NCBI GenBank assembly: GCA_021654395.1
Contig: AP024486.1
Location: 600,001 to 632,000, forward strand
Length of the DNA stretch: 32,000 nt
Reading direction: 5' to 3'
Origin: Candidatus Saccharimonadota bacterium
GTDB lineage: Archaea; Micrarchaeota; Micrarchaeia; Micrarchaeales; Micrarchaeaceae
Positions 4,484 to 30,390 of this stretch are shown here, piece by piece (within the stretch, counting starts at the first letter, position 1; each line of letters opens with the position of its first letter). The notes below the pieces were generated by a model, which saw nothing but the letters and a program-made list of their open reading frames with translations, made no database searches and was not told the origin of the DNA. The translations under genes were made by a program, and so were the position numbers.

Positions 4484-6967
4484 ATGAACGAGGCTACCAA
4501 TGAAAATAAAGAATATGATAGAAAATTAATCCTTTTAGAGAATGATTCAGAGCCATCAATACATAAATTAAAAACAATTTTACAAAGTCCATTAGGATTG
4601 GCACAAGAAATTGCTATTAAATGTTTTCAAACAGAGGATAATAAAGGTTTATTATCATATAAAGATGATTTAGATATATTAAAACGGTTAGGGGCAGGTT
4701 TAGAAAGTGCTATGAATAAAAGTGAATACCCAATCGCAAATTATTCCTCTTATATTTTTGCTTTTCAACAATTTATACATAGCTCATATAGGGCACGGCA
4801 AGGAAATTTCGCAGAGAGTGTAATAAGAGCTATTTTAACTGAAGCAAAAAATGTAAAAGTTTATACAAAAAAAGAACATTCGACTATATCGGAAATTGCA
4901 TTAGGCCAAAAACTTGATAATAAACATGATTTAGATGTTATAGCAAGCAGACAAGATGAGTATCTATTTGTGCAAATAAGATCCAGAGATGATACAGGGG
5001 GAACAACAGCAAAAGGTTCATTAGCTGAATTTTTAAGAGATGTGATTAGAGCTCAGATTATTCCTAAACATTCGATAAGGTATGTTATATTTATATGGGT
5101 AGAACTTCAAGCCGCTCAGAAAGTGTCATTAATAAAAAGGATTTCTAATCAATTGTCTGGTTTTTCATCAATCAGTTCAGATGAAATAGAAAAGAAATTA
5201 TTAATGCAAAAAAAAGTTGAATTATTAAAAAACCTGACATTAGAAGTATGCTATGGTTTTAAAGCGTTTTCAGATATTTTAGGTGAATTTTCTGGTAGTG
5301 ATTCTATTGTAGAAATTTCTAATAGGGTTTTTGCAACATTACAGGATTGGGACGACCTTTGGCTTACATATGCATTATCGACAATAGAATTACAGAATTT
5401 AATCATTAAAAAAATTAATAATTTTAAAATTCTTGAAGAGAAATTACACCAACATAATATTGTCTTAAATGAATCGGATCTATCTAACTACAAGAAAAGA
5501 AGTATAGAAATCGCTCATTTATTATTAGAAGATTGGAAAGAAGATACATTACCTGTCAGAAGTCCAAGAGACCAACTATGGTACATTAGAGATTTAATAT
5601 TAGTAAAAATGCTCTCATACCACAATTATAAAAATAATAAAAATGAGAAAATTAAACCAGATAATTCAATAGGAAAAGAAGGTCAGAATTTAGATTTACG
5701 AAACAATAAAGATTATCCAAATCAATTTAAAGTGTCTTTTAGAAACTTATTTAAATCTAGTATACACTCAACAACTTATGCATCCCATGGAATGTATTAT
5801 TATCCCGCTAAATTTATACCTCAAGTAGTTAGATGGGCTATTGAAAGATATACCAAAGAAGGAGACAATATTTTAGATCCATTTGCAGGTTCTGGCACCG
5901 TAGGAGTTGAAGCATTAATTACTAATAGAAATGCTACATGTATTGATTTAAGTCCTATGTTAAAATATCTGTTAGAAGGAAAAACTTATAGAAATGCTTC
6001 TTTAGAAGATTTATTAAATAAAGCTAGGAAAATAATAGAAAATACAAATATTGAATACTTACCTAAATGGTCAAAAATTGAGTATTGGTATCCCAATGAA
6101 ATATATAGTGTTCTTTTAAAAATGTGGAGTGGATACCAAAATTATAAAAATCCTCTTATTTTATTGGCGTTATTAAAGACCTCTAAAAAATTTTCTTATG
6201 CGGATAATGAAGTACCAAAATTGTTTAGATCCAAGAAAAAAATAGAAGAAATTTCTAAATTATTAAAAACGGATTTTGTTAGGACCATACATAACTATTT
6301 TTTAAAAACAGTAGAAGATATGTATAATTATTCTAATGAATTCAACAAACTGTATAAAGGGGGAAAATTAAATATTTTAGATTCAACAGATATGTTAAAT
6401 TATAATTTACAGGAAAAATACGATCTCTTAATAACATCCCCGCCATACGGTCAAGCACATGAATATATTAGAAGTATTAAATTAGAACTTGGGTGGTTAG
6501 GTTATTCTGATGAAGAAATCAGAGAATTAAGTAAGCATGAAATACCATACAATAATGCGGTACCAGATATAACAATAAAATCTGAAACCTATAACCAGTA
6601 TATAAAGAAGATAGATGGAAAAACTAAAAATTATGCTATAACCTATTTTAAATCAATACTTTATATTTTAGATAAATGCATGAACGCTTTAAAACCCTCA
6701 GGAGTTGCTGCTATTTTTGTCGGGAATGCAACATTTTCAGGTATAGAATTTCCATTCTATCAGATATTTAGGGAACATTTTGAAAGTAACGGTTTTCAAT
6801 TTGAGCTATTATTGGAAGATAGAATTGTGGGCAGAAGATTGTTTAAGGGCCGTAAAAATTTATCACCTGCAGGGATTAAATCAGAATATATGTTAGTAAT
6901 GAGAAAAACTTTGTTTAAGCAAGAAATACAAAATTTAACTTTATATGGAACAAAAAAATTGTTTTAA
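4484..6967 (+). CDS. Single-chain fusion of a PD-(D/E)xK (Mrr-like) nuclease-like domain and an N6A/N4C DNA methyltransferase; type IIG/IIC-like RM candidate
   Basis: 827 aa. The N-terminal pattern GNFAESVIRAIL...HDLDVIAS...YLFVQIRSR matches the G-x-x-F-E ... D-x-D ... Q-x-K layout of Mrr-type nucleases, with R in place of K. The C-terminal half carries HGMYYYPAKFIPQVVRWAIERYTKEGDNILDPFAGSGTVGVEAL (AdoMet motif I, DPFxGSGT) and, about 180 aa later, DLLITSPPYG (catalytic motif IV, SPPY). Confidence 0.8.
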   Translation: MNEATNENKEYDRKLILLENDSEPSIHKLKTILQSPLGLAQEIAIKCFQTEDNKGLLSYKDDLDILKRLGAGLESAMNKSEYPIANYSSYIFAFQQFIHSSYRARQGNFAESVIRAILTEAKNVKVYTKKEHSTISEIALGQKLDNKHDLDVIASRQDEYLFVQIRSRDDTGGTTAKGSLAEFLRDVIRAQIIPKHSIRYVIFIWVELQAAQKVSLIKRISNQLSGFSSISSDEIEKKLLMQKKVELLKNLTLEVCYGFKAFSDILGEFSGSDSIVEISNRVFATLQDWDDLWLTYALSTIELQNLIIKKINNFKILEEKLHQHNIVLNESDLSNYKKRSIEIAHLLLEDWKEDTLPVRSPRDQLWYIRDLILVKMLSYHNYKNNKNEKIKPDNSIGKEGQNLDLRNNKDYPNQFKVSFRNLFKSSIHSTTYASHGMYYYPAKFIPQVVRWAIERYTKEGDNILDPFAGSGTVGVEALITNRNATCIDLSPMLKYLLEGKTYRNASLEDLLNKARKIIENTNIEYLPKWSKIEYWYPNEIYSVLLKMWSGYQNYKNPLILLALLKTSKKFSYADNEVPKLFRSKKKIEEISKLLKTDFVRTIHNYFLKTVEDMYNYSNEFNKLYKGGKLNILDSTDMLNYNLQEKYDLLITSPPYGQAHEYIRSIKLELGWLGYSDEEIRELSKHEIPYNNAVPDITIKSETYNQYIKKIDGKTKNYAITYFKSILYILDKCMNALKPSGVAAIFVGNATFSGIEFPFYQIFREHFESNGFQFELLLEDRIVGRRLFKGRKNLSPAGIKSEYMLVMRKTLFKQEIQNLTLYGTKKLF

Positions 6968-13602: not shown

Positions 13603-16176
13603 ATGAAAAATATATTTAAAAAGCTTAAACATAAGCATACTGATAAAGCGCTTAATGATTTAATAGAACATCTTAATAACATAAATATAAATGAGCTGTT
13701 GGATGCATATAAAGACGATCGTTCAGCTTTATATAATATTCTAATAGCCTTAAAAGAGGTCTGTTCAAATGAGAGCAAAGAGTATGTATATAATATAAAC
13801 TTAAACTATTTAATAAAAAGATTAGCAGATAATGAAACTAAACGCTTATTTGAAGCTGCTTCTAGATTCAAGAATAAAGACTCTATAAAAATTAGTTTAT
13901 CTCTAATATTAGTTAATACTTTATCTAATTTAAATTTAAGCCAAGACTATGATAAGCTCTTAAAAGCACTTAATAATGTAATAGACTATGACTTATCTAA
14001 AGGCCATAAAGATAATGAAAACTTTGCCTTAGATATCATTGATGTATTAAATAGTATAATTACTTATCGAGATACATTTGGAATGAATGTTTCTAACGTT
14101 ATAGGGCCTTTGCTAGATTATGATAATATTGAGAGATTCAGATCATTTTACGATAATGTAACAGAGGGTAAAAGATTATTTAGATACCTAGATATTATGC
14201 TATATTCATATTCATTATTTGTAAAGCTGAAAGATAAAGAAGATCTAGAACACCTTCTAGATTTATACAAAGGTAGTATTGCAATTAAAAGGTTAATACT
14301 TATAAGATACTTGGCTCTACTTAGGCAGAAAAGTAATAAATATGAATCAGAAAAGCAGCATCTTATTAAGTTCTTTAGTAATAGAGATCTTTTAATGAAA
14401 TCATTAAACCTTGTAAATAAAGATAAAGAGTCTAGGGATAACAATAATCCTGTATATAACTTTTTAACTCTAGATCAAGAGCTTAGCATATCACTGGCTT
14501 ATGAACTATCAAAAAGATACGACGAAGCTAAGGTAGATAGTATACTAGATGCTATCTATAAGGCTGAATTAGATGATAATACCAAGATACAGCTTATGGA
14601 GCTGATTAAAGATCTATCTTACTATGAATTTAGTGGTGGTGATTACATAGAAGCTCTTGTAAAGATTGCAGCTAATAAAGATATTACAGATAAGCTAAAT
14701 AAGAATAAGAGTTTAGCCGCTATGCTGTTCAAAAATTATAAGAAGATATACGACATATTTGGAGATTATAGTATAAATATTATCGAAAGCATAATAAAGA
14801 AGCAGGATATTGAGGCTATTCGAGTAATTGAAGCTATAAATGATATTAATAAAGTCTCTAAGATAGTTAAAAAGGTAGCGTCGAATTTAAAGACTCTAGG
14901 ATATAGAAATAGTGACAAGCTAATAAAGCTAGCCAAATATATAGATATGTATAAAGATGAATTAATTATAGATCCAGGCAAAGATCTGAATTCATTATTG
15001 AGGGATTTAGAAGATAGATTATACAATACAATGATAATGCAAATAAGGAAACGCCTTATTAAAAGGTTAAACCCGCAATATATTAACCTAAATGGCGGAA
15101 TAAGGATAAGAGAGAGAAACGTAGATAGATATGAAAGATCAGTAGCATTCAAATCTCTAAGGTTTATGTCAAAGGATGAGCTATTTAAGTACCAACTCTG
15201 GATAAGTAATAATAAATCTGATCTGTTTGATGCTTTAGTTGGAATTCTAAATCCTAAAAAAGATCTACCGCGTTATGTTTTCAATAATGTAGATATATTA
15301 AGCGATGATTATAAATTAATAGAAGCATCAGAAGCTAAAAGCAATTTAGATAAAATAAAACTAAGGACTAAGCATATAATAGGCAGAATATTAAAACTAA
15401 GTAAAGAAAAAGATATAAACAGATATATATTTAAGAAGCTTAAAAGCTACTCTAAAAGGTTTGGATTTAATTATAAAAATTATTCATATAAGAATACTAA
15501 AGATCTGCTTAAGCTTGCAACAGATCTTAGATCATTTATAGCAAATAAGACAGATACTAAAGAATTTAAGAAATATATAGCAGAGGTTGATAGGCTGATA
15601 CAATATCTTAAAAACAAAGCAGAGCTTGAATCTAGCGATATAAGCATAGTAATGCCTTTAAATATGGTAGAAACTGTAGATGCGTTAGAATTCAATAGAT
15701 CGTGCTTTTCGCCTGGAGGCATGAATCATACATCTGCTTTGTCTATAGCAGCATCTCCAGATCTCTTCTTTATAGGTATATATAAAGATAAAGAGATAGT
15801 GGGAAGAGCAGCAGGATTCTTAGGCTACAGAGCTTATCCATCTCCAGACGATAATAGTTTTCATATAGATACGAGCAAAAAGGTAATCGGACTAGCGAGC
15901 GGCATCTATTCTAGATTTGATATAAGTAAAGATAAGCTTCTTAGAATAATTAGCGAAAAATATGCTAAGGATAACAATTATGAAGTGATATTGAATAGTA
16001 AAGAAAGCAAAAACGAAGAAGAAAAGATATACGTTGCAGTTAGATTATCAAAAAGATTTAAAGAACTACTTTATGGTGATTATATCGCTAGTGTTATATA
16101 TCTAGAAGAAAGCCCAAACATAAGAACAGACGAAGATTTAGATATGTATGAATGGGTTATATTAGAATTGAGATGA
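13603..16176 (+). CDS. Large hypothetical protein (857 aa), mostly helical, with a distinct C-terminal globular module
   Basis: Uninterrupted 2.6 kb ORF. The last 190 aa or so change character (LEFNRSCFSPGGMNHTSALSIAASPDLFFIGIYKDKEIVGRAAGFLGY...). A TATA-like ttttatatc lies about 20-25 nt upstream of the ATG. Confidence 0.7.
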   Translation: MKNIFKKLKHKHTDKALNDLIEHLNNININELLDAYKDDRSALYNILIALKEVCSNESKEYVYNINLNYLIKRLADNETKRLFEAASRFKNKDSIKISLSLILVNTLSNLNLSQDYDKLLKALNNVIDYDLSKGHKDNENFALDIIDVLNSIITYRDTFGMNVSNVIGPLLDYDNIERFRSFYDNVTEGKRLFRYLDIMLYSYSLFVKLKDKEDLEHLLDLYKGSIAIKRLILIRYLALLRQKSNKYESEKQHLIKFFSNRDLLMKSLNLVNKDKESRDNNNPVYNFLTLDQELSISLAYELSKRYDEAKVDSILDAIYKAELDDNTKIQLMELIKDLSYYEFSGGDYIEALVKIAANKDITDKLNKNKSLAAMLFKNYKKIYDIFGDYSINIIESIIKKQDIEAIRVIEAINDINKVSKIVKKVASNLKTLGYRNSDKLIKLAKYIDMYKDELIIDPGKDLNSLLRDLEDRLYNTMIMQIRKRLIKRLNPQYINLNGGIRIRERNVDRYERSVAFKSLRFMSKDELFKYQLWISNNKSDLFDALVGILNPKKDLPRYVFNNVDILSDDYKLIEASEAKSNLDKIKLRTKHIIGRILKLSKEKDINRYIFKKLKSYSKRFGFNYKNYSYKNTKDLLKLATDLRSFIANKTDTKEFKKYIAEVDRLIQYLKNKAELESSDISIVMPLNMVETVDALEFNRSCFSPGGMNHTSALSIAASPDLFFIGIYKDKEIVGRAAGFLGYRAYPSPDDNSFHIDTSKKVIGLASGIYSRFDISKDKLLRIISEKYAKDNNYEVILNSKESKNEEEKIYVAVRLSKRFKELLYGDYIASVIYLEESPNIRTDEDLDMYEWVILELR

Positions 16177-22501: not shown

Positions 22502-23077
22502 ATGGGTTTGCTTTTTTATATAGGTATCTGAATAGTAGCAATTATAGTAATAATAGCGGCCATATTTATAATAATATACAACTCATTGGTTGCATTAAAG
22601 AAGAATGTAGATAAGTCCTGGGCTAATATAGACGTTCTTTTGCAGAAGATGCATAATACATTAACAAAGCTTATAGATACAGTAAGCGCATACGCAAAGT
22701 ATGAAAAGAGCGTACTAACGCAGATCACTCAGCTTAGGACTCAATGGATTAACATACCACAAGATGATATAAAGGCAAAGATAGATAATGCTAATCAAGT
22801 ATCTGCAGCACTTAAGTCTCTATTTGCTGTTGCTGAAAACTATCCAGATCTAAAAGCAGATAATAACTTTATGCAGCTACAGCAGACAATACTCTAGTTA
22901 GAGTCACAGATTGCAGATGCAATAGAGTATTACAACAATAGCGTGACTTTATTTAATACAAAGATGCATCAGATACCATATAACACATTTGCAGGTATGC
23001 TTGGATATAAGGATATGCCATTATATCAGCCACCACCAGAGGAGAAGCAAGACGTTCAGATGAATTTTAACATATAG
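22502..23077 (+). pseudogene. lemA: LemA-family protein gene interrupted by two in-frame stop codons
   Basis: A single frame reads MGLLFYIGI*IVAIIVIIAAIFIIIYNSLVALKKNVDKSWANIDVLLQK...FAVAENYPDLKADNNFMQLQQTIL*LESQIADAIEYYNNSVTLFNTKMHQIPYNTFAGMLGYK...*. The internal stops are TGA at 22529-22531 and TAG at 22895-22897. There is no frameshift. Confidence 0.85.
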
Positions 23078-23282: not shown

Positions 23283-23696
23283 TTATAAATTAGAGCTATT
23301 AATTATATCTTTAAGCTCATCTTCTAAATATTTATCTATATGCTTTATTCCATAATACCCTACTACTCTGCTTTTTGAGATATCAATACTGCCAATAGAT
23401 CTACCTATTCCACGTTTCAGAGCTCCTGCATTAATATTACTTAGATGAAATTCATAAAAATAGATATCTCCTATAGCCTTTTGATTATCATATCTTATCC
23501 TCTCTATAGCTATCACATAGATTGTTTTATCTTCTGGCCTCTTACTAAACTCGAACAAAGCCCTTCTATCTTCAACTAGATAATTTATGAAGAATAGACC
23601 TTTTCCTTCTATATAACTCTTCAAATTATCAAATATCTTCTTAACAGACTCTTTAGTACTTTCATATATATCTTCATCTTTGCTCCTTTGGACCAT
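23283..23696 (-). CDS. Hypothetical small protein (137 aa), paralogue of the ORF at 26152-26688, divergent from the FtsZ-like gene
   Basis: Alignable with the 178-aa ORF: EDKTIYVIAIERIRYDNQKAIGDIYFYEF...IGSIDISKSRVVGYYGIKH versus SEDTIFHAFAIEDIKYIGKGLVGDFRIYEY...IASIDGRVVKRYGQIKF. Confidence 0.6.
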   Translation of the reverse strand: MVQRSKDEDIYESTKESVKKIFDNLKSYIEGKGLFFINYLVEDRRALFEFSKRPEDKTIYVIAIERIRYDNQKAIGDIYFYEFHLSNINAGALKRGIGRSIGSIDISKSRVVGYYGIKHIDKYLEDELKDIINSSNL

Positions 23697-23880
23697 AGAA
23701 TTTGATTACAAGCTCAGATTTTAAAATATATAAATATTTTCTCTAGTTTTTATATTTGATATCCATCTAGAAGATCTAAATATTATTCTATTAATTTCAA
23801 TATTAACTCCAGCTAAATCTTTAGATATATTATAATTCAGTAATGTTTTTAAGAATTAATTCCTTAAAGAGGATGATTAA

Positions 23881-24570
23881 ATGAAGAATGAAGACGAGTT
23901 AATTAATCATATATTTGGATACAAAGCAGATTCGGCAGATGGGTTTGTAATAGGATTAGGAAATACTGGATGCATGATAGCAGATGAGCTTCTAAAGATC
24001 AGCGATAACGATTACACAAGGAAGTATATTAAAGTTATAGAGTTAGATTCGAGTAAAGACTTTAAAGAGTATGAAGATGAACGACTTTTAAGAAAGCTTA
24101 TAGGAAAGGAGATACTTTATGACAAAGATGCTTATCTATCTGATTTTAGAGAGAACAAGCATCATACTGCTAACCCTAGATATGGTGAAGATGCAATCAA
24201 GAAGGAGAAAGAGCTTATATTAGCTCTTATAGATAGATATAAGCCAAGAGTCTTACTTATTATATCTGCCTTTGGCGGTAGCGTGGGGACTGGTGCAACA
24301 ACAGAGCTAGTTAAGTATATAAAGGCTAGGGATATTATGACTATAGGTCTAATAGTGCTTCCTTTTAAGTTTGAAAGAGAGAGAAGAGCGATAGCAGAGA
24401 GGGCATTAGATGATATTAAGAGCTACTTTGATAATATACTAACAGTAGATCTAAATAGATTTATAAATCTAGATGAAGAAGCAACCTTAAATATGACAAT
24501 GAAGCATATAGATAGAAGTATCGCAAGAATTGCAGAGAGCATCTTAACTCTTTATTCAAGACAGGTATAA
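23881..24570 (+). CDS. FtsZ/tubulin-superfamily protein with the N-terminal GTP-binding domain only (229 aa)
   Basis: Collinear with the FtsZ N-domain. FVIGLGNTGCMIADEL aligns with the G-box GxGGAGxN. NPRYGEDAIKKEKELILALI...VLLIISAFGGSVGTGATTELVKYIKA aligns with NPxiGxxAAee...ggGGGTGTGaaPviA, the tubulin signature, here GGSVGTG. TIGLIVLPFKFERERRAIAERALDDIKSYFDNILTV aligns with tvgvVTxPFxfEGxxRxxxAxxGixxLxxxvDtlivi. The protein ends just after the H7-like helix, with no T7 loop. AGAGGATGA lies 5-13 nt upstream of the ATG. Confidence 0.8.
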   Translation: MKNEDELINHIFGYKADSADGFVIGLGNTGCMIADELLKISDNDYTRKYIKVIELDSSKDFKEYEDERLLRKLIGKEILYDKDAYLSDFRENKHHTANPRYGEDAIKKEKELILALIDRYKPRVLLIISAFGGSVGTGATTELVKYIKARDIMTIGLIVLPFKFERERRAIAERALDDIKSYFDNILTVDLNRFINLDEEATLNMTMKHIDRSIARIAESILTLYSRQV

Positions 24571-24802
24571 TTTCTAATCAAAGCATAGTTTAAAGTCCTA
24601 AAGATCTAAACCTAATATTAATATGAGAGCTTATATCTTTTATTTAAGGCCTTAATAAGTTTAATATATACTATATAAAAATAATTCTTGTAAATAGCTA
24701 TCAATAAATTACTGGCTTTTTATTGTTAGAGGTTCCTATAGTCGGATAAAGTTAAAAAAATTTAAATATCAGTTTTGATTATTAAGATTATAAGATCGAT
24801 AA

Positions 24803-25951
24803 ATGAACAGGAATCTAGAGCCAATAAATATAGCAGAAGAGCGCGATATCTCAAGTCAGAATCCATGCGTTAGAAATATCTCAATTATATTACACCTTGA
24901 TAGATCTTACTTCGAAGCCTATAGATATATAAATCATACTGATGGGCATAAGACAAGAGAGCAGAATGAGGATCTAAAGGAGAAGATATCTCTATTATAT
25001 AATAGTATTAGAGATCCTAAGGTAGTAATCACATCGTTAGAAGAGGCTATCCTTGACTCTATAGGTGAAGCAACAGGCTACTCTGGAAATTATGAAAGAT
25101 GCTATAAGATATATGATAGCGTAAGGTTAGAGATAAGCGATAAACAACTAAATCCAGTTAGCTATCTACGCGATCGTTCAAGCATATACATATATCTAGA
25201 TCCAGGTACTATATTACAAGATATAATAAGTGATCCTAAATCTTCATCTACAGTCTTTTTCAAGTATAGCTTCTATAGTATACTTAAAAAAGCAGTATAC
25301 AATAATATAACAGATAGAATAAAAGCGATATTTATATTTGATACATTAAATGCTAAGGCTGATAAGAGCAGAAAGGAGCTAAAATTAGAAGGCTATATTA
25401 AAAAAGCAGAGGTTTCATACAATATATTCAAGATTATACTAAATGGAGTAATGGGCAATATTGACTCCCCTGGAGAGGCCTTTCTAAATAGATATACTGC
25501 TGATCTACATGCTATAAATGAAAGATTAAATAGTAGAAGATATAAGAAGCAGTTTAAGAAAGCTATAAATCATATCAGACTTAAACTGCTTGAGAAAGAT
25601 TTAGATATAAGAGATGAAGCTTTAGATAAAGATGTAATTAACGATGCGTTAATTGCTGTATCAACAGCATTTGTACTTTCTAATCTTATGGATAGATATA
25701 CTTTAAGCTCTGAGGAATTAAGAAAAGAGGTAGTAGTTCGCACATATGATGAAGTGCATAAAAATATGTTAAATAAGCTTACGGATCTTAGATATATATC
25801 TGATTTTGTTATAATGCGCACTAGCTATAAGTCAATAATAAGAGTTATAAAGTTACTGAGCTCGAAGGACAGACATATTAAGCCAAATACATTTAAGAAT
25901 AAGTTAATGAAGATCTTCAAGATCTTTATCAAGATCTTTAGATTAAGATAA
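24803..25951 (+). CDS. Hypothetical protein (382 aa) with a C-terminal basic amphipathic helix, a putative membrane-targeting sequence
   Basis: Long ORF 232 nt downstream of the FtsZ-like gene on the same strand. The C-terminus FKNKLMKIFKIFIKIFRLR places K/R every 3-4 residues between I/F/L/M residues. Confidence 0.6.
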   Translation: MNRNLEPINIAEERDISSQNPCVRNISIILHLDRSYFEAYRYINHTDGHKTREQNEDLKEKISLLYNSIRDPKVVITSLEEAILDSIGEATGYSGNYERCYKIYDSVRLEISDKQLNPVSYLRDRSSIYIYLDPGTILQDIISDPKSSSTVFFKYSFYSILKKAVYNNITDRIKAIFIFDTLNAKADKSRKELKLEGYIKKAEVSYNIFKIILNGVMGNIDSPGEAFLNRYTADLHAINERLNSRRYKKQFKKAINHIRLKLLEKDLDIRDEALDKDVINDALIAVSTAFVLSNLMDRYTLSSEELRKEVVVRTYDEVHKNMLNKLTDLRYISDFVIMRTSYKSIIRVIKLLSSKDRHIKPNTFKNKLMKIFKIFIKIFRLR

Positions 25952-26151: not shown

Positions 26152-26688
26152 CTATCTATCATTATTATCCTCTCGAATTTGACTAAAATCTTTTTTTAGA
26201 TTATGAGCCATCTCTTCATAGTCGCTAAGCATTTGATTAAGCATCTTAATAAATTTTTTTCCCCCAAACTTTATCTGACCATACCTTTTGACGACTCTTC
26301 CATCTATACTTGCAATTCCTGAACTCATGCATCTCTCTACTTCCTTGGTAACGACACCCCTTGATAGATTATTTAGATCGTCAGCCTTTAAACCATCTAT
26401 GGAGTACTCATAGATCCTAAAATCTCCAACTAGGCCTTTGCCAATATACTTAATATCTTCAATCGCAAATGCATGGAATATAGTATCCTCTGATTTCTCA
26501 GCAAACTTTATAAGAATTCTACCTCCATTTTTATTTAGCTCAACATTGAGCTTTACATAGCTATAGCCCTTATTTTTCATAAAATCTACAAACTGCTCAG
26601 CTTGTTTTCTAATTTTATTTAGCTCAATATTGAGCTTTACATAGCTATTCTCATCTTCAGGTATATTACTATCTTTATCTATATTCAT
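26152..26688 (-). CDS. Hypothetical protein (178 aa), paralogue of the ORF at 23283-23696, with an internal duplication
   Basis: See the paralogue alignment under 23283-23696. The N-terminal SYVKLN(I/V)ELNK is duplicated, encoded by 34-nt direct repeats at 26531-26564 and 26615-26648. Confidence 0.6.
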   Translation of the reverse strand: MNIDKDSNIPEDENSYVKLNIELNKIRKQAEQFVDFMKNKGYSYVKLNVELNKNGGRILIKFAEKSEDTIFHAFAIEDIKYIGKGLVGDFRIYEYSIDGLKADDLNNLSRGVVTKEVERCMSSGIASIDGRVVKRYGQIKFGGKKFIKMLNQMLSDYEEMAHNLKKDFSQIREDNNDR

Positions 26689-30036: not shown

Positions 30037-30390
30037 CTATACTGCTAAGCTTATCTTGATATATAATAGTAAGACAGCAAGTCTTATTAGCGTGGATCTA
30101 TCTATGTTATATGCTCTCTCGAGCTCATCCATTCTTTCTAGAGTTTTATCATCTACCTTAAAGCAGTGTATAAGGCCTCCAATGAAGGTCATATTTGCAT
30201 CATCTATCAAAGCTTTATCAAGCCTCTCTGATCTATTATATCTATTGAATAGATTCTCTAAGCAGTATCTTATTAGATCTGATGACGTTTTTAGATTAAG
30301 CTTTGCTCTGAGCTCTTTAAGTAGATTATCAAACTCTCCATTAGATTTAAAAGTCACTATATTATTAAGGCGTTCCTTATTCGCATTCAT
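30037..30390 (-). CDS. Putative DNA-binding protein with two ribbon-helix-helix-like modules
   Basis: 117 aa. IVTFKSNGEFDNLLKELRAKLNLKTSSDLIRYCLENL and HCFKVDDKTLERMDELERAYNIDRSTLIRLAVLLL each show the strand-helix-helix pattern of CopG/Arc-type RHH domains. It lies 31 nt upstream of the ITPase gene on the same strand. Confidence 0.45.
   Translation of the reverse strand: MNANKERLNNIVTFKSNGEFDNLLKELRAKLNLKTSSDLIRYCLENLFNRYNRSERLDKALIDDANMTFIGGLIHCFKVDDKTLERMDELERAYNIDRSTLIRLAVLLLYIKISLAV

What the first reader, a model, noticed from the sequence alone, without database searches (positions are those of the whole stretch)
23881..24570. Half-FtsZ: a tubulin/FtsZ-superfamily protein reduced to the GTP-binding domain
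The 229-aa product aligns block by block with the N-terminal domain of FtsZ, through the G-box, the NP-x-x-G-x-x-A helix, the tubulin signature, the PF-x-x-E strand and the H7-like helix. It stops right where the T7 synergy loop and the C-terminal domain should begin.

- The downstream 232 nt are noncoding, so this is not a simple frameshift of a full-length ftsZ.
- Nucleotide-contact motifs have drifted: GGSVGTG replaces GGGTGTG, and the T3 GAGG loop is absent.
- Without T7 it cannot complete the active site of a neighbouring subunit. It could be a filament capper, a regulator, or one part of a split or novel polymer.
- Short FtsZ-like families have been proposed in the literature to act in membrane remodelling. 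I cannot tell from the sequence whether this protein belongs to one of them.
Basis: partly seen in the sequence, partly recalled or inferred. Interest (0 to 1): 0.85.

Follow-up and report, generated by a model that had tools for sequence, protein, structure and literature searches.

The report
Expressed half-FtsZ in a DPANN archaeon
A tiny symbiotic archaeon that can be grown in the lab makes a protein that is only the nucleotide-binding front half of the cell-division protein FtsZ; such front-half-only FtsZ proteins also turn up in environmental DNA and have not been described in the papers I could search, although it is still unknown what they do.

Summary
ORF 23881-24570 (+) encodes a 229-aa protein. 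It passes the Pfam Tubulin/FtsZ GTPase-domain threshold and models confidently as the FtsZ N-terminal domain plus helix H7. It ends just before the T7 loop. No C-terminal-domain remnant lies downstream or elsewhere in the window.

The window comes from the complete genome of the cultivated DPANN archaeon Ca. Microcaldus variisymbioticus ARM-1. The protein is BCS91194.1, deposited as "cell division protein FtsZ".

It is not a dead pseudogene. In published co-culture proteomics, a 26.394-kDa row sits among rows matching its genomic neighbours. That row has 12 unique peptides and 53% coverage in all four replicates.

It has no orthologue among 1.84 billion representative proteins. Other complete N-domain-only FtsZ ORFs do exist in metagenomes. 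One is a conserved 240-242-aa family with dN/dS of 0.18-0.49. All of them have also lost the T3 loop.

It does not belong to FtsZl1 or FtsZl2, the "membrane-remodelling" families.

Most likely it cannot polymerise or hydrolyse GTP and instead modulates canonical FtsZ. This is inferred, not shown. I could not check whether ARM-1 also has a full-length FtsZ.

The parts
23881..24570 (+). CDS of the 229-aa N-domain-only FtsZ-like protein (BCS91194.1; locus tag inferred as ARM1_0651 from the neighbour's tag)
   Evidence: ORF. Pfam PF00091 at 55.5 bits. AlphaFold2 and Foldseek give the FtsZ N-domain plus H7. Accession. Detected in the proteome.
23869..23876 (+). Shine-Dalgarno-like GAGGATGA, 8 nt upstream of the ATG
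   Evidence: Read directly from the sequence. That it functions as a ribosome-binding site is inference only.
23953..23976 (+). T1 loop region, residues 25-32 (GLGNTGCM). The canonical sequence is GVGGGGxN.
   Evidence: Alignments A1 and A3 and mapping to E. coli FtsZ: G20 to N28, G21 to T29, N24 to M32.
24106..24171 (+). Glycine-free insertion, about residues 76-97, that replaces the T3 loop (GLGAG). It is the low-confidence part of the model.
   Evidence: Alignment. pLDDT is 55-64 for residues 81-100.
24274..24294 (+). Degenerate tubulin signature GGSVGTG, residues 132-138 (T4 loop)
24361..24384 (+). T5 region PFKFERER, residues 161-168. It lacks the Gly of the canonical PFxFEG.
24487..24561 (+). 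Helix H7, residues 203-227. It carries D211 at the position of the Asp in the canonical AFxxAD motif. The chain ends two residues later, before T7.
   Evidence: Secondary structure of the model. Alignment.
24571..24802 (.). Non-coding spacer with no FtsZ C-domain remnant
   Evidence: Repeated stops in the gene's own frame. No ORF of 40 aa or more. No tblastn hit. No Rfam family.
24803..25951 (+). Co-directional orphan gene ARM1_0652 (382 aa, BCS91195.1). Any functional link to the half-FtsZ is unproven.
   Evidence: No homologue among 5.8 billion proteins. No Pfam, PHROG, PADLOC or PDB match. No profile similarity to FtsZ. Detected in the proteome at 44.749 kDa.
23283..23696 (-). Orphan 137-aa gene, paralogue of 26152-26688. 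It flanks the pair on the upstream side.
   Evidence: BLASTP 28% identity, E 4e-9. Proteome row at 16.003 kDa.
26152..26688 (-). Orphan 178-aa gene, paralogue of 23283-23696. It flanks the pair on the downstream side.
   Evidence: Proteome row at 20.565 kDa.

Best explanation
**What it is (high confidence, about 0.9).**
- It is a translated, lineage-specific paralogue of FtsZ in the DPANN archaeon Ca. Microcaldus variisymbioticus ARM-1.
- It keeps only the N-terminal nucleotide-binding domain and the H7 helix.
- It lacks the T7 catalytic loop, the C-terminal domain and the SepF-binding tail.
- It has also lost the gamma-phosphate-sensing T3 loop.

**How it most likely works (inferred, about 0.35).**
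- It cannot hydrolyse GTP and cannot extend a protofilament. It has no 'bottom' face and no T7 to offer a neighbouring subunit.
- It may still bind guanine nucleotide. Partial T1 and T4 phosphate loops and D211 at the canonical H7 Asp position are retained.
- It would act as a modulator of the cell's full-length FtsZ. Binding through what remains of its 'top' face, remodelled by the insertion at T3, it would either cap the growing bottom end or sequester monomers. Either action would tune Z-ring dynamics.

**Shown versus inferred.**
- Shown: domain content, truncation point, motif state, absence of a C-domain remnant, expression at protein level, lack of orthologues, and the existence of analogous short FtsZs elsewhere.
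- Inferred: nucleotide binding, any contact with canonical FtsZ, and any effect on division.
For: - Domain and fold.
- Truncation exactly before T7 and loss of T3.
- No C-domain remnant nearby and no similarity of the neighbouring gene to FtsZ.
- Protein detected: the 26.394-kDa row has 12 unique peptides, 53.3% coverage and 60 MS/MS spectra. It was identified by MS/MS in all 4 co-culture replicates and in none of the host-only samples, with iBAQ 4.0e8. It is flanked by rows matching the predicted masses of the neighbouring genes.
- The ORF is intact despite the longest branch in the tree, about 1.5-1.8 substitutions per site to any FtsZ, in DNA where about 8% of random codons are stops.
- Analogous N-domain-only FtsZs exist. 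P0010 (201 aa), P0090 (222 aa) and the 240-242-aa P0130 family are complete ORFs with no C-domain downstream. The P0130 family is under purifying selection, dN/dS 0.18-0.49.
- FtsZ grows at the end where the C-terminal domain is exposed, by docking of an incoming GTP-bound N-domain (PMC11157280). A subunit without a C-domain would therefore terminate growth.
- Precedent: in Agrobacterium, overexpressing the truncated paralogue FtsZ1 blocks division (bioRxiv 10.1101/2025.09.29.679267).
- ARM-1 is reported to have minD, ftsZ and sepF. Archaeal SepF binds the FtsZ C-terminal tail, which this protein lacks. This suggests a canonical FtsZ partner exists.
Against: - The T3 loop, through which an incoming N-domain is thought to dock onto the filament's bottom end, is replaced by a non-homologous insertion. 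So canonical longitudinal contact is doubtful.
- The guanine-stacking Phe is Met207. N165 of E. coli FtsZ aligns to L191. T1 and T4 have non-Gly substitutions. Nucleotide binding is therefore uncertain.
- No orthologue exists, so conservation or selection on this particular gene cannot be shown.
- No conserved neighbour links it to division.
- A LemA gene 0.8 kb upstream carries two in-frame stops, which shows ongoing gene decay in this region.
- I could not confirm that ARM-1 has a full-length FtsZ.
- Agrobacterium FtsZ3, which in my recollection has only a partial GTPase domain, shows no overexpression phenotype.
Confidence: 0.35

Rival explanations
1. Neofunctionalised, FtsZ-independent protein. 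The Rossmann-like N-domain has been recruited as a monomeric or differently oligomerising nucleotide-binding module. It may work with the orphan neighbours ARM1_0652 and the 137- and 178-aa paralogues, and has nothing to do with the Z ring.
For: - All four short FtsZ lineages have lost both elements that meet at the canonical longitudinal interface, T3 and T7. This argues that the interface is no longer used.
- This protein has the longest branch in the tree.
- It is surrounded by ARM-1-specific orphan genes that are co-expressed at similar levels.
- The short FtsZ genes share no neighbours across lineages.
Against: - No partner or ligand can be named.
- The neighbours have no detectable family.
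- A 232-nt spacer suggests separate transcription from ARM1_0652.
Confidence: 0.3
2. Evolutionary relic. It is the remnant of an FtsZ paralogue whose C-terminal half was deleted. It is still transcribed and translated but has no selected function.
For: - It is a singleton without orthologues.
- Its GTP-binding motifs are eroded.
- A neighbouring LemA pseudogene shows decay in this region.
Against: - The protein is robustly detected, with 53% coverage in 4 of 4 replicates.
- The reading frame is intact despite very high divergence in stop-prone AT-rich DNA.
- The fold is confidently predicted.
- It sits in an 814-kb reduced genome.
- The analogous P0130 family is under purifying selection.
- By contrast, the decaying LemA gene still scores 145 bits to its family yet already has two stops.
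Confidence: 0.12
3. Split FtsZ. A separately encoded C-terminal-domain protein, elsewhere in the genome, supplies T7 and the bottom face in trans, and the two reconstitute a polymerising unit. From my own knowledge, FtsZ N- and C-domains can fold independently and complement each other (Oliva, Cordell and Lowe 2004).
For: - The truncation falls exactly at the domain boundary, after H7.
- Domain independence of FtsZ is recalled from the literature and was not tested here.
Against: - No FtsZ C-domain-like sequence lies within the 32-kb window.
- The adjacent gene is unrelated.
- Loss of T3 is not expected for a still-polymerising unit.
- H7 positions that pack against the C-domain are no longer small residues. 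By my reading of the alignment against S. aureus FtsZ numbering recalled from memory, G193 becomes I217 and G196 becomes S220.
Confidence: 0.08
4. Sole FtsZ-family protein of ARM-1. The 'ftsZ' listed in the genome paper would be this gene, and the organism would divide with an N-domain-only FtsZ through an unknown assembly mode.
For: - The deposited name of BCS91194.1 is 'cell division protein FtsZ'.
- I could not locate another FtsZ from this genome.
Against: - My searches could not have found it, so absence of evidence is weak here.
- In a comparative survey, 93% of DPANN genomes have FtsZ-based division.
- Micrarchaeota are reported to have FtsZ1 and FtsZ2.
- ARM-1 has SepF. SepF binds the FtsZ C-terminal tail and co-occurs with canonical FtsZ.
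Confidence: 0.05

Closest known systems
Canonical FtsZ (TIGR00065; e.g. M. jannaschii FtsZ1 1FSZ, S. aureus FtsZ 7OJD)
   Same: It has the same N-terminal GTPase-domain fold with helix H7 (TMq about 0.72). Recognisable T1, T4, H3 (NPxxG) and T5 (PFxFE) blocks are present, and so is an Asp at the canonical H7 position.
   Different: - It has no T7 loop, no C-terminal domain (PF12327) and no linker or tail with the archaeal GID motif.
- T3 is replaced by an insertion.
- The signature is GGSVGTG.
- It scores 54 bits against a 295-bit cut-off for the FtsZ equivalog model.
Truncated FtsZ paralogues of Hyphomicrobiales (Agrobacterium tumefaciens FtsZ1 and FtsZ3)
   Same: These are extra, shortened FtsZ copies outside the main division locus, proposed to tune division. 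FtsZ1 overexpression blocks division.
   Different: - They are bacterial and unrelated by descent.
- Most of them keep the whole globular GTPase core and lose only the linker and tail.
- Here the cut falls inside the core, at the N/C-domain boundary, and T3 is also lost.
Metagenomic N-domain-only FtsZ ORFs found here (P0010, 201 aa; P0090, 222 aa; P0130 family, 240-242 aa)
   Same: - They are 200-242 aa with PF00091 only and end shortly after H7.
- The T3 GxGAGG loop is absent or replaced.
- They are complete ORFs with no C-domain downstream.
   Different: - They are only 22-35% identical to this protein.
- Gene neighbourhoods differ.
- A crude NJ tree groups this protein with P0010 (70% bootstrap) but does not unite all four (6%). 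The architecture may therefore have arisen more than once.
FtsZl1 and FtsZl2 (Makarova and Koonin 2010)
   Same: They are divergent FtsZ-superfamily proteins with altered or missing C-terminal FtsZ elements, present alongside canonical FtsZ.
   Different: - FtsZl1 is about 1000 aa with a coiled coil and an alpha-helical C-domain. It has no alignable T6-H7 and sits in vWA, GTPase or OmpA operons.
- FtsZl2 is proteobacterial, keeps T7 and has a roughly 300-aa alpha/beta C-region.
- None of these features is present here.
Protein inhibitors that bind an FtsZ polymerisation face (SulA, MciZ)
   Same: This is a functional analogy only. A non-polymerising protein that occupies one longitudinal face of FtsZ would block or cap assembly. 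The complexes 1OFU and 4U39 appear among the structural matches through their FtsZ chains.
   Different: SulA and MciZ are unrelated folds. That this protein binds FtsZ at all is untested.

Membership tests
Tubulin/FtsZ superfamily | GTPase domain matching Pfam PF00091 above the gathering score | tested here: met
   55.5 bits against a cut-off of 33, E 1.2e-14, covering profile positions 4-186 of 190. Foldseek top hits are all FtsZ.
Canonical FtsZ (TIGR00065 equivalog) | Whole-protein score above the curated cut-off | tested here: not met
   54.1 bits against a cut-off of 295.2.
Canonical FtsZ | C-terminal domain (PF12327) with the T7 synergy loop N-x-D-x-x-D | tested here: not met
   There is no PF12327 hit. 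The chain ends at the end of H7. No remnant is found in the window.
Canonical FtsZ | Tubulin signature GGGTG[ST]G and T3 loop GxGAGG | tested here: not met
   The signature is GGSVGTG and T3 is replaced by a glycine-free insertion.
Canonical archaeal FtsZ1/FtsZ2 | C-terminal tail with the conserved GID motif that binds SepF | tested here: not met
   The motif is described in PMC8178401. The 229-aa sequence has no tail and no GID.
FtsZl1 (Makarova and Koonin 2010) | N-terminal FtsZ-like domain, long coiled coil and alpha-helical C-domain (about 1000 aa); no alignable T6-H7 | tested here: not met
   The protein is 229 aa with a single domain. T6-H7 is clearly alignable and modelled. Family description.
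FtsZl1 | Operon with a vWA-domain protein, a divergent P-loop GTPase, protein kinases or OmpA-family proteins | tested here: not met
   None of these domains appears in the neighbours. Family description.
FtsZl2 | All N-domain motifs including T7, plus a roughly 300-aa alpha/beta C-terminal region; proteobacterial | tested here: not met
   There is no T7 and no C-terminal region, and the host is an archaeon.
CetZ | Closer sequence or structure similarity to CetZ than to FtsZ, with a two-domain core | tested here: not met
   No entry named CetZ appears among the 56 PDB sequence matches at E up to 10 or the top 50 Foldseek matches.
TubZ / RepX / PhuZ (plasmid and phage tubulins) | Best match to these families, a two-domain core, and a mobile-element context | tested here: not met
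   - RepX matches only at E 3e-4, against 4.6e-11 for FtsZ.
- PhuZ and other viral matches are weaker and full length.
- There are no PHROG hits.
- No relatives are found in IMG/VR.
N-domain-only short FtsZ (provisional group defined here) | About 200-242 aa, PF00091 only, ends after H7, T3 loop absent, complete ORF | tested here: met
N-domain-only short FtsZ (provisional group) | Common descent (monophyly) of the short proteins | tested here: inconclusive
   NJ bootstrap support is 70% for this protein with P0010, 54% for P0090 with P0130, and 6% for all four together. Long branches and a crude method limit this test.

The most novel reading that the evidence does not exclude
N-domain-only FtsZ proteins would be an unrecognised, recurrently evolved class of minimal tubulin-superfamily proteins in uncultivated archaea and other microbes. 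They would be functional end-binding or sequestering regulators of the Z ring, or a new nucleotide switch, and ARM-1's copy would be the first one found in a cultivable organism with proteomic support. The more extreme version is that ARM-1 has no full-length FtsZ at all and divides with this half-protein. I give that extreme version about 0.05.
Probability: 0.3. Interest if true: 0.8.

Novelty: new variant of a known kind. Interest (0 to 1): 0.6.

Why it matters
FtsZ polymerisation needs both halves of the protein. The N-domain holds GTP, and the T7 loop of the next subunit's C-terminal half completes the active site.

A naturally occurring, expressed protein that is only the N-domain would be a ready-made probe of filament polarity and end-capping. 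It could also be a new way for cells to regulate division.

It occurs in one of the very few cultivated DPANN archaea, where division biology is almost unexplored. Proteomics and cryo-ET are already established for this co-culture.

A conserved 240-242-aa family with the same architecture in metagenomes suggests the phenomenon is not a one-off. If instead it proves to be a functionless remnant, it is a clean example of a translated relic domain in a highly reduced genome.

Tried and rejected
1. **Recent frameshift or nonsense truncation: rejected.** There is no C-domain similarity in any frame downstream or anywhere in the window.
2. **Split gene with the adjacent 382-aa ORF: rejected.** hhalign probability is 0.1, and that ORF has no homologues or family.
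3. **Membership in FtsZl1, FtsZl2, CetZ or TubZ/PhuZ: rejected.** See the membership table.
4. **Mobile-element, viral or defence origin: no support.** There are no PHROG or PADLOC hits, no IMG/VR relatives, and viral structural matches are weaker than cellular FtsZ.
5. **Finding orthologues: none found.** A word-indexed search and an exhaustive phmmer search of 1.84 billion representatives found none. The best non-self score is 76 bits.
6. **Finding the canonical FtsZ of ARM-1: failed.**
   - It did not appear among the listed hits.
   - Two cluster look-ups of 20 candidate FtsZs found none on the 814,439-bp contig.
   - The genome paper's supplements are not held.
   - The proteomics table is stored without protein identifiers.
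7. **Taxonomic placement of the P0130 family through the GTDB genome scan: failed.** The only hit was a distant Nitrospirales match.
8. **Single-sequence AlphaFold2 model: useless.** pLDDT was 42, so it was replaced by the alignment-based model.
9. **Sigma-70 promoter and terminator scan: uninformative** for an archaeon.
10. **Rfam: no families in the window**.
11. **FtsZ2-type origin: left unresolved.** The idea came from the 'PFxxE-R' motif lacking Gly, which is shared with some archaeal-looking FtsZs. The NJ tree does not place this protein with them, and PDB scores are slightly better to bacterial FtsZ than to M. jannaschii FtsZ1.
Full report
**1.

The window has an ATG-to-TAA ORF at 23881-24570 (+) of 229 codons. 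The DNA is about 29% G+C, and about 8% of random codons there are stops. An open frame of this length has a chance probability of about 3e-9.

The product passes the Pfam Tubulin/FtsZ GTPase-domain threshold. It scores 55.5 bits against a cut-off of 33, with E 1.2e-14, and residues 23-195 cover profile positions 4-186 of 190. It matches the NCBIfam FtsZ equivalog only weakly, at 54 bits against a 295-bit cut-off, and only over FtsZ positions 79-205. Every strong sequence match in the PDB is an FtsZ, down to E 4.6e-11. The plasmid tubulin RepX appears only at E 3e-4, and no entry named CetZ appears at all.

A single-sequence AlphaFold2 model was poor, with pLDDT 42. With an 84-sequence alignment (A3) the model is confident, with pLDDT 84 and pTM 0.84. 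It shows the alternating strand-helix pattern of the FtsZ N-domain and ends in a long helix at residues 203-227. Foldseek against the PDB returns only FtsZ structures at the top, for example S. aureus FtsZ 7OJD at E 3e-12 and TMq 0.72.

**2. Anatomy**

I aligned the protein with 39 and with 83 FtsZ relatives (A1, A3). The findings are:
- T1 is GLGNTGC (G20 to N28, G21 to T29, N24 to M32).
- The T2 motif NTD is degenerate.
- The T3 loop GLGAG is gone. It is replaced by a glycine-free stretch 11 residues longer (about residues 76-97), which is also the low-confidence part of the model.
- The H3 start NPRYGEDA is kept.
- T4 is GGSVGTG rather than GGGTGTG.
- T5 is PFKFE-RERR, with the usual Gly deleted.
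- In H7, Asp211 sits at the Asp position of the canonical AFxxAD motif. In my recollection this is the guanine-contacting Asp. The stacking Phe is Met207.
- The chain ends (…ILTLYSRQV) where E. coli FtsZ continues with …ELITRPGLMNVDFAD. It therefore stops immediately before the T7 loop.

The following 232 nt carry repeated stops in the gene's own frame, the only frame I translated, and contain no ORF of 40 aa or more. tblastn with 155 FtsZ proteins finds nothing resembling the C-terminal domain downstream or elsewhere in the 32 kb. The next gene, 382 aa at 24803-25951, has no profile similarity to FtsZ, with hhalign probability 0.1.

This is not a fresh frameshift.

**3. Where it comes from**

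The exact protein is in NCBI as BCS91194.1, [quoted passage not shown]. It lies on an 814,439-bp contig. It is also in an independent Logan assembly of run DRR248898.

Those identifiers belong to ARM-1, Ca. Microcaldus variisymbioticus. This is a thermoacidophilic DPANN archaeon grown in co-culture with Metallosphaera sp. AS-7. Its complete circular genome is AP024486, 814,439 bp with 849 CDS (Sakai et al. 2022, PMC8784108). That paper lists minD, ftsZ and sepF among ARM-1's genes. It does not say how many ftsZ genes there are.

**4. It is translated**

Johnson et al. 2024 (PMC11329633) ran label-free proteomics on the co-culture and identified 698 ARM-1 proteins. Their Supplementary Data 1 is stored without the identifier columns. 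However, it is in genome order and has a molecular-weight column.

I computed average masses for the genes of this locus and searched for them. Consecutive rows read 42.237, 42.436, 16.003, 26.394, 44.749, 20.565 and 29.735 kDa. Six of these seven equal the masses I computed:

| Row (kDa) | Gene |
|---|---|
| 42.237 | 362-aa ORF |
| 16.003 | 137-aa ORF |
| 26.394 | the half-FtsZ |
| 44.749 | 382-aa ORF |
| 20.565 | 178-aa ORF |
| 29.735 | DUF72 gene |

I did not compute a mass for the 42.436-kDa row. By position and size it should be the 386-aa gene called at that spot.

The 26.394-kDa row has 12 unique peptides, 53.3% sequence coverage, score 57.4 and 60 MS/MS spectra. It was identified by MS/MS in all four co-culture replicates and in none of the host-only samples. 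Its iBAQ is 4.0e8. That is somewhat below the roughly 1e9 I estimate by eye as typical of the rows shown. The protein is therefore made and stable in growing cells.

**5. Relatives**

A word-indexed search of 5.8 billion proteins found only itself plus distant FtsZs. An exhaustive phmmer search of 1.84 billion cluster representatives found 1971 FtsZ-like hits. Nothing beyond itself scored above 76 bits. It is a singleton. The 382-aa neighbour is likewise an absolute orphan.

The hits did include other short proteins: P0010 (201 aa), P0090 (222 aa) and P0130 (242 aa). Contig look-ups show each is a complete ORF with a stop well inside its contig. None has C-domain similarity downstream.

A profile of the four short proteins (A2) retrieved six further 90%-identity clusters of P0130 relatives, all 240-242 aa with PF00091 only. 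The P0130 cluster itself has 14 full-length 242-aa members and one 102-aa fragment. The family sits in an ordinary chromosomal context, near ribonucleotide reductase, RNase HII, malic enzyme and IMPDH. Pairwise dN/dS among four members is 0.18-0.49.

All four short lineages lack both T7 and the T3 GxGAGG loop. They share no neighbours with the ARM-1 locus. They are absent from GTDB species representatives and from IMG/VR.

A crude NJ tree with bootstrapping gives these results:
- ARM-1 with P0010: 70%.
- P0090 with P0130: 54%.
- All four together: 6%.
- The ARM-1 protein has the longest branch.

The architecture may thus have arisen more than once. Long-branch effects make this uncertain.

**6. 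What it is not**

The "FtsZ-like families implicated in membrane remodelling" are FtsZl1 and FtsZl2 (Makarova and Koonin 2010, PMC2875224).
- FtsZl1 proteins are about 1000 aa, with a coiled coil and an alpha-helical C-domain. They have no alignable T6-H7 and occur in vWA, GTPase, kinase or OmpA operons.
- FtsZl2 proteins are proteobacterial, retain T7 and have a roughly 300-aa alpha/beta C-region.

None of these features is present here. It is also not CetZ-like or TubZ/PhuZ-like. Nothing suggests a phage or defence context.

**7. How it probably works**

These points follow from the anatomy:
- Without T7 it cannot activate GTP hydrolysis in a neighbouring subunit.
- Without the C-domain it has no "bottom" face, so a homopolymer of the FtsZ type is impossible.
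- Without T3 it lacks the gamma-phosphate sensor.

In current models, FtsZ filaments grow at the end where the C-domain is exposed. Growth occurs by docking of an incoming GTP-bound N-domain, and the T3 loop takes part in that contact (PMC11157280, citing Du et al. 2018). An N-domain-only subunit that still docks would therefore end growth at that end, or it could hold monomers by their T7 face.

That is my preferred mechanism, at about 0.35. Three things support it by analogy:
- A truncated FtsZ paralogue in Agrobacterium blocks division when overexpressed.
- Unrelated inhibitors occupy FtsZ's polymerisation faces. The SulA and MciZ complexes 1OFU and 4U39 appear. Where those inhibitors bind is from my own knowledge.
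- SepF is present in ARM-1. Archaeal SepF binds the FtsZ C-terminal tail and co-occurs with canonical FtsZ, which implies a full-length partner.

The main counter-argument is that T3 itself has been replaced in all the short lineages. Canonical docking is therefore doubtful. This feeds the chief rival, a repurposed nucleotide-binding module unrelated to the Z ring (about 0.3).

A functionless relic (about 0.12) is disfavoured by expression, by an intact frame despite extreme divergence, and by a confident fold. The neighbouring LemA gene makes a useful contrast. It still scores 145 bits to its family but already has two in-frame stops.

A split FtsZ (about 0.08) and "the only FtsZ of ARM-1" (about 0.05) cannot be excluded, because I could not read the rest of the genome.

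**8. The gap I could not close**

I could not establish whether AP024486 also encodes full-length FtsZ1 or FtsZ2.
- It did not surface in the capped hit lists.
- Twenty candidate FtsZs checked by cluster look-up were not on the 814,439-bp contig.
- The relevant supplements were unavailable or stripped of identifiers.

Literature priors favour its presence. In one survey, 93% of DPANN genomes have FtsZ-based division. Micrarchaeota are reported to carry FtsZ1 and FtsZ2.

**9. Novelty and score**

Truncated FtsZ paralogues are known in bacteria. I found no description of FtsZ proteins cut at the N/C-domain boundary, in archaea or elsewhere. That search covers only the open-access library.

I rate this a new variant of a known kind. 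It is a real, expressed, N-domain-only FtsZ in a cultivable DPANN archaeon, with a conserved analogue family in metagenomes. Interest is 0.6. It is directly testable and potentially informative about filament polarity and archaeal division control. But its function is unproven, it is a singleton, and the accessory-paralogue scenario is the expected one.

Noticed in passing
window 22502-23077 (+): A LemA-family gene carries two in-frame stop codons, TGA at 22529-22531 in the N-terminal membrane helix and TAG at 22895-22897. The read-through translation still covers the whole Pfam LemA profile (1-149 of 149, 145 bits). It is either a very recent pseudogene or a case of stop-codon read-through. 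No matching 11.7-kDa row appears at that position in the genome-ordered proteomics table.
   Followed up: partly
window 23283-23696 (-) and 26152-26688 (-): Two paralogous orphan genes (137 aa and 178 aa; 28% identity, E 4e-9) bracket the half-FtsZ and 382-aa gene pair on the opposite strand. Both are detected in the ARM-1 proteome, at 16.003 and 20.565 kDa. They have no family assignment.
   Followed up: partly
window 26524-26648 (-), inside the 178-aa gene: There is an 84-nt tandem duplication (41-nt core, 93% identical). It gives a repeated '…YVKLN[IV]ELNK…' segment in the protein.
   Followed up: no
window 24803-25951 (+): ARM1_0652 (382 aa) has no detectable homologue among 5.8 billion proteins and no Pfam, PHROG, PADLOC or PDB match. 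It is nevertheless well detected in the proteome, with 21 peptides and 60.5% coverage.
   Followed up: yes
loci L004-L007 (metagenome contigs): A conserved 240-242-aa N-domain-only FtsZ family (P0130, P0157-P0162) is under purifying selection, with dN/dS 0.18-0.49. In three of the four contigs read (L004, L006, L007) it lies next to a convergent class-I methyltransferase. In L007 it sits in a chromosomal context with RNR, RNase HII and IMPDH. The host organism is unknown, and the family is absent from GTDB species representatives.
   Followed up: partly
window 4484-6967 (+): A large 827-aa protein has an N6/N4 DNA methylase domain. It and most other long ORFs in the window (for example 13603-16176, 857 aa) have little or no family annotation. 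This is typical of the ARM-1 genome.
   Followed up: no
window 30037-30390 (-): A CopG/ribbon-helix-helix (ParD-like) gene lies about 5.5 kb downstream of the half-FtsZ. Archaeal ftsZ2 is reported to be often adjacent to parD (PMC8178401). The distance here is too large to mean much.
   Followed up: no
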